Shown here: one piece after another, positions 62,798 through 64,000 of the stretch
Position numbering within the stretch: the first letter of the stretch is position 1
How the letters are laid out: the number at the start of each line of letters is the position of its first letter
Origin: the human T2T-CHM13v2.0 reference genome, Homo sapiens
Reading direction: 5' to 3' (one strand)
DNA: 64,000 nucleotides
Assembly (NCBI RefSeq): GCF_009914755.1
Contig: NC_060930.1
Made by a program: the position numbers and the translations under genes
The notes under the pieces: model-generated
Seen by the model: the letters and a program-made list of their open reading frames with translations, nothing else
The model's database searches: none
Told to the model about the DNA's origin: nothing

Positions 62798-63457
62798 TTT
62801 AACTTGATCATTTCTAGGTAAAGGCAATACTTTTCAGATTTAAAATTCTATCATTTCAGATTTTCTGTCATTTCAAATGTTGTCTTTCAGATTTGAAAAG
62901 AGGATTTGTCTCCTCTTTTCCCTCAGAGTAGCATCTAAGCTTCTGACAGAGCAATGTGAAATCTGGGAGGCTTCCTCTGGGCACTTTGGAGATGGTCTAG
63001 GGCTGGCTGTCATCGACTGAAATATGCAGTGACATCTGGTCCCTGGGTGTGGACACCCACGCTGGCTCTTGGTAGGTTGTTTAAAACCTGTCCGTTGCTA
63101 GGCCCTTTCCACTCTTTGTTCCTTGGATGGTATTTTGGGTTTTCCTAAGCAGGGTGTGCAACTATCATCCAGGTTTGTCTCCCGTACCATTATGCAGAGT
63201 GTTTCTCCATGATTTGCTTTGTCTTATGTCAACCAGATGTGAAATGAAGCCAAGTTAGCCTCTATTGTTCAGCCCCTACACTTGATAACACAGGGTTCTG
63301 TCATCCATCCCTTCCACTCTACCATAAACTCACACCAGCTTCCCCATCTCAGAGGCTCTTCCCTGGCCTGTGGAGAATAGATGTAGTGGTAGAGGGGCCA
63401 TGAGAACTCACTCAGAAAATATTCTTGCCAAATCTTCATTCTAACATCTAGACTGCA

Positions 63458-63882
63458 GCTTTCTTAAGGTTAAAAGCCAGAAATTAGACATGGTTGTTTT
63501 TCATTTGATCCATATAGTAAACACAGAGGGTGATTGAGTTGAAGGCTGGTTGCATGGAATGTGTACAGTCATCTCCCAACACCCCGGCAGACGCCTGAAA
63601 CCACTGACAGCACCTAACCCTACATAAACCATGTATTTTCCATCTGTCAACAAATTGGCTAAGTGACTACCTGGGAGGTAGCATAGACAGCACAGATATG
63701 CTGGACAAAGGGATGATTCACATCCCAGGCTGGACTGGGCAGGATGGCAGAAGATTTCATCATGCTATTTGGAATGGCACACAGTTTAAAGCAAATAAAT
63801 GGTTTATTTCTGGAATTTTCCATTAATGTTTTCAGACTGCTGTTGACCACAGGTAACTGAAATCATGGAAAGAGAAACTGCA
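63458..63882 (+). promoter_or_regulatory. VIP: Candidate VIP upstream tissue-specifier element (TSE) enhancer
   Basis: PstI sites at 63453-63458 and 63878-63883 release exactly 425 bp; two ATTTTCCAT (63635, 63815); AP-1-like TGATTCA (63714); position fits the recalled MYCT1-VIP spacing. VIP itself is outside the window. Confidence 0.65.
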
Positions 63883-63900
63883 GATAAGGGAGGACTACTC
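63566..63900 (-). mobile_element. MER44 (TcMar-Tigger MITE)
   Basis: CAGTCATCTCCC...GATAAGGGAGGACTACTC termini with TA at 63564-65 and 63901-02; internal GCTGGACAAAGGGATGATTCACATCC and GTTTATTTCTGGAATTTTCCAT match MER44 as I recall it. Confidence 0.82.
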
Positions 63901-64000
63901 TATGTGGTGGGGGAACATATACATAAGAGATGACATTGTGAAGTAGGTAAAATTGGTTTTAAAATCTTTAATACTCTATTTTTCAACTTCCACATCTTAG

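What the first reader, a model, noticed from the sequence alone, without database searches (positions are those of the whole stretch)
63453..63902. Probable VIP tissue-specifier enhancer is largely a MER44 DNA transposon
Seen: an exactly 425-bp PstI-PstI fragment with two identical ATTTTCCAT 9-mers (63635-63643, 63815-63823; also NFAT-like TGGAAAA) and TGATTCA. About 75% of it lies within a TA-flanked MER44 MITE (63566-63900), including all three motifs. Recalled, to be verified: VIP lies just downstream of MYCT1, and its cell-type-specific enhancer was described as a 425-bp element ~4.2-4.7 kb upstream with two AT-rich octamer-like sites. Inference: a classical neuropeptide enhancer is an exapted Tigger-family element. 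At least the second 9-mer and the AP-1-like site appear to come from the transposon consensus, so other MER44 copies may be latent POU/NFAT/AP-1 enhancers.
Basis: partly seen in the sequence, partly recalled or inferred. Interest (0 to 1): 0.8.

Follow-up and report, generated by a model that had tools for sequence, protein, structure and literature searches.

The report
VIP upstream enhancer fragment is mostly transposon
A 425-bp stretch about 4.5 kb upstream of the human VIP gene, which probably is the long-studied VIP "tissue specifier" enhancer, consists for about three quarters of an ancient cut-and-paste transposon fossil that already carried some of its protein-binding motifs when it landed.

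Summary
PstI sites at 63453 and 63878 are exactly 425 bp apart. ATTTTCCAT occurs at 63635 and 63815, and TGATTCA at 63714. The fragment lies 4665 to 4240 bp upstream of the annotated VIP start, whose TATA box and CRE-like palindrome I confirmed.

Window 63566-63900 is one copy of a dispersed, TA-flanked, Tigger-type miniature transposon. It gave more than 2000 first-look matches in the genome, and a profile of 35 other copies hits 63574-63905 at E 2.5e-83. It covers 73-75% of the fragment.

The second 9-mer and TGATTCA are the family's ancestral state. The first 9-mer and the best octamer match (AAGCAAAT, 63789) arose by substitutions special to this copy.

Three things remain unverified:
- The name MER44 was not tested, because no Dfam or Repbase library is held.
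- The published enhancer coordinates were not checked, because the primary papers are not held. They agree only with recall.
- The repeated 9-mer is not statistically unusual (768 of 2000 shuffles).

AP-1-rich enhancer activity of MER44B/C/D copies is already published. The link to VIP was not found in print. This is a new example of a known kind, of moderate interest.

The parts
63453..63883 (.). PstI-PstI fragment (425 bp site to site; cut-to-cut 63458-63882). Candidate VIP tissue specifier element, -4665 to -4240 from the annotated VIP start at window 68118.
   Evidence: Identity with the published element rests on recalled coordinates only.
63458..63565 (.). Single-copy, non-repeat quarter of the fragment.
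   Evidence: window 63400-63570 finds only itself in the genome (1 candidate, 1 scored).
63564..63565 (.). Left TA, putative target-site duplication.
   Evidence: TACAGTCATC at 63564-63573 has 2 mismatches to the family terminus; the left TA is present in 26 of 35 family copies.
63566..63900 (.). Non-autonomous Tigger-type DNA transposon copy of the short (~360 bp) architecture, probably MER44A. About 25 nt are deleted inside the left terminal repeat. It is about 21% diverged from the family majority.
   Evidence: (profile hit 63574-63905, E 2.5e-83).
63635..63643 (+). First ATTTTCCAT (minus strand ATGGAAAAT; octamer-like and NFAT-like by recalled consensus). It is a derived state of this copy.
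   Evidence: Exact in 0 of 35 other copies. The family has T at 63635 (31 of 35) and a variable base at 63641 (G 11, A 8, T 8, C 4, gap 4).
63714..63720 (.). TGATTCA, the only heptamer in the fragment within 1 mismatch of AP-1 (TGA[C/G]TCA). It is the ancestral family state.
   Evidence: 27 of 35; 38 of 50; it sits at a fixed place about 189 nt from the right end in all length classes.
63789..63796 (+). AAGCAAAT, the best octamer (ATGCAAAT) match in the fragment with 1 mismatch. It was created by three substitutions special to this copy (63791, 63793, 63794).
   Evidence: 0 of 50 other copies have it; the family columns are 45-47 of 50 conserved.
63815..63823 (+). Second ATTTTCCAT, inside GGAATTTTCC. 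It is the ancestral family state.
   Evidence: each column 80-100% in the family; exact in 12 of 35; 16 of 50.
63901..63902 (.). Right TA target-site duplication.
   Evidence: right TA in 26 of 35 copies; TAGAGTAGTC on the minus strand at 63893-63902, 1 mismatch.

Best explanation
The 425-bp PstI fragment is the distal enhancer of the human VIP gene known as the tissue specifier element (TSE). About 73-75% of it is one old copy of a non-autonomous Tigger-type DNA transposon: the short form of the family that is most probably MER44, mobilised by Tigger7 roughly 85-110 million years ago.

The transposon arrived already carrying an AP-1-like heptamer (TGATTCA) and one ATTTTCCAT / GGAATTTTCC motif. 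Later point substitutions in this copy added a second ATTTTCCAT and a near-perfect octamer (AAGCAAAT).

The likely mechanism is that AP-1 proteins and POU (Oct-1/Oct-2-like) proteins bind these sites. The element then cooperates with the promoter-proximal CRE, 4.6 kb downstream, to allow constitutive, cell-type-specific VIP transcription.

Shown here: the position, the transposon identity and boundaries, and which motifs are ancestral and which derived. From secondary literature: a TSE exists upstream of VIP, is needed for constitutive expression, and AP-1 is involved. Recalled or inferred: the exact published coordinates, the octamer-like sites, and which proteins bind which motif.
For: Position:
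- PstI sites are 425 bp apart at -4665 and -4240 from the annotated VIP start. They are the only such fragment in that zone.
- The VIP TATA box (L031 5088-5094) and the CRE-like CGTCATACTGTGACGTC (L031 5029-5045) lie where the annotation puts the promoter.

Transposon:
- 2181, 2043 and 2773 first-look candidates in the genome for three different copies used as query, 40 scored each, 72-85% identity.
- Of 35 other short copies, 26 have TA on the left, 26 on the right and 19 on both. Their termini are CAGT... and ...ACTG, and the median length is 360 bp.
- The profile gives one hit in the 64-kb window, at 63574-63905, E 2.5e-83.
- Both termini are found at 63564 and 63893.
- Longer relatives fall into classes of about 535-560 and about 700-732 bp that share both ends. 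This fits papers that name four non-autonomous Tigger7 derivatives, MER44A-D.
- Divergence is K = 0.25 for the window copy and a median of 0.20 for the others. This fits the published MER44 age of 84.9 My.

Motif origin.

Function from papers:
- A review passage states that a TSE lies upstream of the VIP CRE, that deleting it alone silences constitutive expression, and that AP-1 complexes are key (PMC9406019, passages).
- Reference lists give the titles of Hamelink et al. 2004 and Hahm & Eiden 1999, which name an upstream TSE and AP-1 binding by two cis-active elements.
- MER44B/C/D copies are AP-1-motif-rich, infection-induced open chromatin (passages). They carry JUN motifs in RELA-bound regions (passages). 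MER44 is over-represented among STARR-seq enhancers in HepG2 (passage).
Against: - No primary TSE paper could be read. The '425 bp, about -4656 to -4231, two AT-rich octamer-like sequences' is recall only. It could be wrong, or could refer to other motifs in the fragment.
- The name MER44 was not tested against any consensus library.
- The window copy is no better conserved than other copies: K non-CpG is 0.236 against a median of 0.201, and the others were picked as best-scoring. There is therefore no sign of purifying selection over the element as a whole.
- Keeping the two ancestral motifs intact is unremarkable, since both are exact in 10 of 50 other copies.
- A repeated 9-mer is expected by chance in 38% of shuffles.
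- Published enhancer enrichments concern MER44B/C/D, not the short form seen here.
- The hub's table lists no RefSeq functional element at this place.
- Reporter activity in neuroblastoma lines need not mean a role in vivo.
Confidence: 0.72

Rival explanations
1. The fragment is the published TSE, but the transposon is only raw material. The working sites are the ones made after insertion by point substitutions (the first ATTTTCCAT and AAGCAAAT at 63789), or they lie in the unique 108 bp (63458-63565). The motifs inherited from the transposon consensus contribute little.
For: - The first 9-mer is exact in 0 of 35 other copies and needs two copy-specific changes.
- AAGCAAAT, the only octamer match within 1 mismatch, is in 0 of 50 other copies. 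It rests on three substitutions in columns that are 45-47 of 50 conserved.
- Five of the twelve positions 63791-63802 differ from the family majority, against about 21% overall.
- The unique left quarter is single-copy.
Against: - The only AP-1-like heptamer in the whole fragment is the ancestral TGATTCA, and secondary sources tie AP-1 to the VIP cis-elements.
- The derived sites still lie inside the transposon, so the enhancer would still be transposon-derived sequence.
- Which sites were mutated in the published work could not be read.
Confidence: 0.15
2. The fragment has enhancer activity only in transfected reporter constructs in certain neuroblastoma lines. This would be a generic property of AP-1-like Tigger-type fossils. 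It would play no real part in VIP regulation in vivo and would evolve neutrally.
For: - The window copy is as diverged as, or more diverged than, other copies of the family (K 0.249 against a median of about 0.20-0.21).
- Retention of the ancestral motifs is within neutral expectation (10 of 50 keep both).
- No RefSeq functional element is listed here in the hub's table.
- Other MER44 copies score as enhancers in episomal STARR-seq.
Against: - A review states that deleting the TSE alone silences constitutive expression of the reporter.
- A cluster of derived changes created extra POU-like motifs. This is suggestive, though post hoc.
- No in vivo data could be examined either way.
Confidence: 0.1
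3. The PstI fragment is not the published TSE. The 425-bp spacing and the position are a coincidence with a mis-recalled description, and the real element lies elsewhere in the 5.2-kb flank.
For: No primary source could be read.
Against: An exact 425-bp PstI fragment at -4.67 to -4.24 kb is the only PstI fragment in that zone. It fits recalled figures to within a few bases once the start site is set by the CRE position. Such a match is very unlikely by chance.
Confidence: 0.03

Closest known systems
MER44A-D, non-autonomous derivatives of Tigger7 (TcMar-Tigger / pogo-like DNA transposons)
   Same: TA target duplication, CAGT... terminal inverted repeats, thousands of dispersed copies, several length classes sharing both ends, and about 20-25% divergence. 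Papers describe MER44A-D as Tigger7 derivatives about 85 My old.
   Different: The name itself was not tested, because no consensus library is held. The window copy lacks about 25 nt of the left terminal repeat. Subfamily assignment by substitutions was inconclusive. By architecture it is the short form.
MER44B/C/D and Tigger7 copies acting as AP-1-motif-rich inducible regulatory elements (Bogdan et al., bioRxiv 10.1101/707612; Genome Res 2025, PMC12212084; STARR-seq preprint 10.1101/2022.12.16.520732)
   Same: The same transposon family. An AP-1-type site sits at a fixed place in the element. One T-to-C change turns the family's TGATTCA into canonical TGACTCA, as seen in 1 of 15 long copies at the homologous site.
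   Different: Those studies concern macrophages, endothelial cells and HepG2, and the longer subfamilies. Here the copy is the short form, keeps the non-canonical TGATTCA, and sits beside a neuropeptide gene. In the passages I read they do not mention VIP.
VIP tissue specifier element (Hahm & Eiden 1996-1999; Hamelink et al. 2004)
   Same: An upstream element needed together with the proximal CRE for constitutive, cell-specific VIP transcription, with AP-1 involved (passages; titles). Position and size match recalled figures.
   Different: Its transposon origin is not mentioned in anything I could search. The exact published sequence and mutated sites were not seen.
Classic exapted transposon enhancers (for example MER41 interferon-inducible enhancers, mentioned)
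   Same: A transposon consensus brings ready-made transcription factor motifs next to a host gene.
   Different: Here a single old DNA-transposon copy is concerned, with part of its motif set acquired after insertion. No family-wide rewiring of a neuroendocrine network is shown.

Membership tests
Tigger-type (pogo/Tc1-mariner) non-autonomous DNA transposon | TA target-site duplication at both ends | tested here: met
   Family: TA on the left in 26 of 35 copies, on the right in 26 of 35, on both in 19 of 35. Window: TA at 63564-63565 and 63901-63902.
Tigger-type (pogo/Tc1-mariner) non-autonomous DNA transposon | Terminal inverted repeats starting CAGT... | tested here: met
   Family termini are CAGT (16 of 35, with single-base variants in others) and ACTG (25 of 35). 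In the window, the right terminus has 1 mismatch in 10 and the left 2 mismatches in 10, followed by a deletion of about 25 nt.
Tigger-type (pogo/Tc1-mariner) non-autonomous DNA transposon | Dispersed, multi-copy, too short to encode a transposase | tested here: met
   2043-2773 first-look candidates per query (lower bounds, 40 scored each). Median length 360 bp.
MER44 (Repbase/Dfam name) | Significant alignment to the MER44 consensus or Dfam model | not testable with these tools
No Dfam or Repbase library is held.
MER44 (Repbase/Dfam name) | Several non-autonomous subfamilies (A-D) sharing termini | tested here: met
   Length classes of about 360, about 535-560 and two kinds of about 700-732 bp share both ends. 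Papers name MER44A, B, C and D. Matching classes to letters is my inference.
MER44 (Repbase/Dfam name) | Age around 85 My | tested here: met
   K is 0.17-0.28 across 36 copies and 0.249 for the window. At a recalled neutral rate of about 2.2e-9 per site per year this gives roughly 75-125 My. The published figure is 84.9 My.
MER44 (Repbase/Dfam name) | Termini shared with the autonomous Tigger7 | not tested
No Tigger7 copy was fetched.
VIP tissue specifier element | The published 425-bp fragment about 4.2-4.7 kb upstream of the VIP start | tested here: inconclusive
   The fragment is 425 bp at -4665 to -4240. The published coordinates could not be read and agree only with recall.
VIP tissue specifier element | Contains an AP-1-binding element | tested here: inconclusive
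   There is one AP-1-like heptamer (TGATTCA, 1 mismatch), and it is the only one in the fragment. Binding is not testable here.
VIP tissue specifier element | Two AT-rich octamer-like sequences required for activity | tested here: inconclusive
   Candidates are the two ATTTTCCAT (2 mismatches to the octamer as 8-mers) and AAGCAAAT (1 mismatch). Which ones were published is unknown to me.
VIP tissue specifier element | Cell-specific enhancer activity dependent on the proximal CRE | not testable with these tools
   Needs an experiment. The CRE-like palindrome is present at L031 5029-5045.

The most novel reading that the evidence does not exclude
A functionally dissected neuropeptide enhancer was built in two steps from one Tigger-type fossil. 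The transposon delivered a proto-enhancer (an AP-1-like site plus one POU/NFAT/kB-like site). Selection then 'matured' it by a handful of substitutions that added a second ATTTTCCAT and a near-perfect octamer, giving placental mammals or primates a new neuroendocrine control of VIP. Reverting those five derived bases would then weaken the enhancer, and species lacking the insertion or the derived bases would lack this mode of VIP expression.
Probability: 0.2. Interest if true: 0.6.

Novelty: new member of a known kind. Interest (0 to 1): 0.38.

Why it matters
Few transposon-derived enhancers have classical deletion, mutation and gel-shift data behind them. If the VIP TSE is this MER44-type copy, decades-old biochemistry (AP-1 and Oct-like binding, dependence on the CRE) can be read directly onto a transposon consensus.

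That allows a clean test of which enhancer sites were inherited from the transposon and which evolved afterwards. It also links the neuroendocrine VIP locus to a transposon family already known for AP-1-dependent inducible activity in immune and endothelial cells.

It does not change the general picture. Transposon-derived enhancers and the MER44 AP-1 activity are established, and any RepeatMasker track would show the overlap.

Tried and rejected
- Primary papers were not held. I tried Hahm & Eiden 1998 JBC, 1998 Ann NY Acad Sci and 1999 JBC, Hamelink 2004, and (by PMC ids recalled from memory, which may be wrong) Smit & Riggs 1996 and Pace & Feschotte 2007.
- Full-text searches for the TSE gave only a review passage and reference-list titles.
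- The left edge of the element gave three different readings. MAFFT placed it differently in two alignments and the profile starts only at 63574. I settled on TA/CAGT at 63564/63566 with an internal deletion, because of the terminus match. A truncated left end is not excluded.
- Subfamily by diagnostic substitutions was inconclusive. The window is 82% identical to the ~540-bp class majority and 78% to the short class. Most differing columns are CpG-decay sites, and the long copies had been chosen for likeness to the window. I rejected this as a basis for assignment.
- The two identical 9-mers are not a statistically meaningful repeat.
- I found no sign of extra conservation of the copy.
- Orthologues in other mammals could not be examined, because no other vertebrate genome is held.

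Full report
**What is in the sequence.** PstI sites (CTGCAG) lie at 63453-63458 and 63878-63883, exactly 425 bp apart. ATTTTCCAT occurs at 63635-63643 and 63815-63823 on the + strand. There are 8 occurrences in the 64-kb window on both strands against 2.2 expected. TGATTCA lies at 63714-63720; there are 11 in the window against 19.9 expected, so it is not enriched.

Within the fragment the repeated 9-mer is the only repeated 9-mer. However, 768 of 2000 dinucleotide-preserving shuffles of the fragment also contain one. The repeat is therefore not remarkable in itself.

**Position relative to VIP.** The hub's annotation puts the VIP start at window 68118. I fetched window 63001-69000 as L031. 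A TATA box lies at L031 5088-5094, 30 nt upstream of that start. The palindrome-like CGTCATACTGTGACGTC lies at L031 5029-5045.

The four PstI sites in this stretch lie at -4665, -4240, -1918 and -1772. The 425-bp fragment is thus the only PstI fragment in the -4.7 to -4.2 kb zone.

From memory, and not from any call, the VIP cAMP-responsive element is numbered -86 to -70. That would put the older +1 three bases upstream of the RefSeq start and the cut-to-cut fragment at about -4657 to -4233. I recall the tissue specifier element (TSE) as 425 bp, -4656 to -4231. This is a close fit, but to recalled numbers only.

**What the literature tools gave.** None of the primary TSE papers is held.
- A review (PMC9406019, passages) says a TSE lies further upstream of the VIP CRE. 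It says deleting the TSE alone silences constitutive expression and that different AP-1 complexes serve constitutive and inducible expression.
- Reference lists give the titles of Hamelink et al. [quoted passage not shown]
- No searchable paper gave coordinates or site sequences.

**The repeat.** Window 63566-63900 used as a query against the window's own genome gave 2181 first-look candidates. The 40 that were scored (one being the window itself) were 72-82% identical, apart from that self-match, on many chromosomes. Two other copies used as queries gave 2043 and 2773 candidates. The left flank 63400-63570 finds only itself.

Homology to other copies always stops at 63900-63903.

I held 61 loci:
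- Two are the window's own region.
- L032, L038 and L052 repeat L019, L021 and L003, and L051 is a duplicate of L050.
- Five (L004, L009, L016, L025, L029) showed only the right part and were left out.
- 35 are short full-length copies. Nine of these came from the search with the window and 26 from the search with L019.
- 15 are longer copies.

In the 35 short copies the median terminus-to-terminus length is 360 bp (range 340-376). TA is present on the left in 26, on the right in 26 and on both in 19. The termini are CAGT (16 exact) and ACTG (25 exact).

A profile built from these 35 copies without the window hits the window once, at 63574-63905 (model positions 46-383 of 392, E 2.5e-83).

The family terminus with its TA (TACAGTAGTC) matches at 63893-63902 on the minus strand with 1 mismatch and at 63564-63573 on the plus strand with 2 mismatches. 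Matches this good occur 45.8 times per 128,000 positions in shuffles. One on the correct strand within about 45 nt of the expected place has a chance of about 1.6%. A truncated left end is the alternative.

The transposon covers 317 of 425 bp (74.6%) of the fragment, or 309 of 425 (72.7%) on the profile boundary.

**Family identity.** These features define a Tigger-type (pogo-like) non-autonomous DNA transposon.

The 15 longer copies share both ends with the short ones. They carry extra internal sequence inserted near the place of the first 9-mer. They fall into classes of about 535-560 bp and two kinds of about 700-732 bp. Papers state that Tigger7 mobilised four non-autonomous derivatives, MER44A-D, and that MER44 is about 84.9 My old.

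The window copy differs from the short-family majority at 68 of 327 sites (K = 0.249, non-CpG 0.236). The other 35 have a non-CpG median of 0.201.

All this fits MER44, with the window copy in the short, presumably A, architecture. The name could not be tested because no Dfam or Repbase library is held. An attempt to assign the subfamily by substitutions was inconclusive.

**Origin of the motifs.**
- *Second 9-mer.* Every column is the family majority, at 80-100%. The exact 9-mer is present at the homologous place in 12 of 35 short copies and 16 of 50 copies overall.
- *TGATTCA.* It is also ancestral: 27 of 35 and 38 of 50. It sits about 189 nt from the right end in all length classes. One long copy (L018) has canonical TGACTCA there. 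It is the only heptamer in the fragment within one mismatch of AP-1.
- *First 9-mer.* It is not ancestral and is exact in 0 of 35. The family has T at 63635 (31 of 35) where the window has A. The family has a variable base at 63641 (G 11, A 8, T 8, C 4, gap 4), probably a decayed CpG, where the window has C.
- *Best octamer match.* AAGCAAAT at 63789-63796 is present in 0 of 50 other copies. It depends on three substitutions in columns that are 45-47 of 50 conserved.

So the copy inherited two motifs and gained two POU-like motifs later.

**Mechanism and rivals.**
- The most likely reading (0.72) is that this fragment is the TSE, and that a Tigger-type fossil supplies most of it, including the AP-1-like site and at least one of the AT-rich sites. 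AP-1 and POU proteins would bind there and cooperate with the proximal CRE.
- The first rival (0.15) is that the active sites are chiefly the derived ones or the unique quarter.
- The second rival (0.10) is that the activity is a reporter-assay property without a role in vivo.
- The third rival (0.03) is that the fragment is not the TSE.

**What is known already.**
- MER44B is the subfamily most enriched in infection-induced open chromatin of macrophages, and the related MER44C and MER44D are also highly enriched. AP-1 motifs occur in 96% of accessible MER44B copies (bioRxiv 10.1101/707612, passages).
- MER44B/C/D and Tigger7 carry JUN motifs in RELA-bound regions (PMC12212084, passages).
- MER44 is over-represented among STARR-seq enhancers in HepG2 (passage).

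A link between MER44, or any transposon, and the VIP enhancer was not found. 'MER44' with 'vasoactive intestinal' gave 0 papers. 'VIP gene' with 'transpos' gave 47 papers, of which the 15 listed were irrelevant and the other 32 were not seen. Subscription papers and supplements were not searched.

**Verdict.** This is a new member of a known kind, and interest is moderate (0.38).

Noticed in passing
window 62891-64502: According to the hub's gene table, alternative MYCT1 transcripts end in an exon (62891 to 64498-64502) that contains the whole PstI fragment and the transposon. The candidate VIP enhancer is thus also transcribed as part of a neighbouring gene's alternative 3' exon.
   Followed up: no
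L031 5029-5045 and 5088-5094 (window 68029-68045, 68088-68094, outside the window): The VIP core promoter has a TATA box 30 nt upstream of the annotated start. The palindrome-like CGTCATACTGTGACGTC (the cAMP-responsive element by recall) lies 73-89 nt upstream of the start.
   Followed up: partly
L002, L008, L011, L013, L015, L023, L024 (about 535-560 bp); L010, L026, L017, L020 and L018, L030 (about 600-732 bp): Longer relatives of the element share both ends with the short form. They differ by internal segments inserted close to the place of the first 9-mer. In the short copies that junction position is unusually variable (TCTA, TTGA, TCCA, TCAA and others). This may be a decayed CpG or a mark of independent internal deletions.
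   Followed up: partly
L018 position 512 of the extracted 701-bp copy; L036 position 239 of the extracted copy: Single transitions turn family sequence into canonical AP-1 sites. TGATTCA becomes TGACTCA at the homologous site in L018. A second proto-site (family ...CTACTCAG...) reads TGACTCA in L036. This may explain why only some MER44 copies are AP-1-bound in published data.
   Followed up: partly
L050 and L051 (two places about 300 kb apart on contig C2): Two family copies gave identical alignment coordinates and scores to the same query. They probably lie in a recent segmental duplication. One was dropped from the counts.
   Followed up: no
window 63812-63821: The ancestral second 9-mer is embedded in GGAATTTTCC, which resembles a kB/Rel half-palindrome (recalled consensus). 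It is exact in 17 of 50 other copies. Published work found no RELA motif enrichment in MER44B/C/D.
   Followed up: partly
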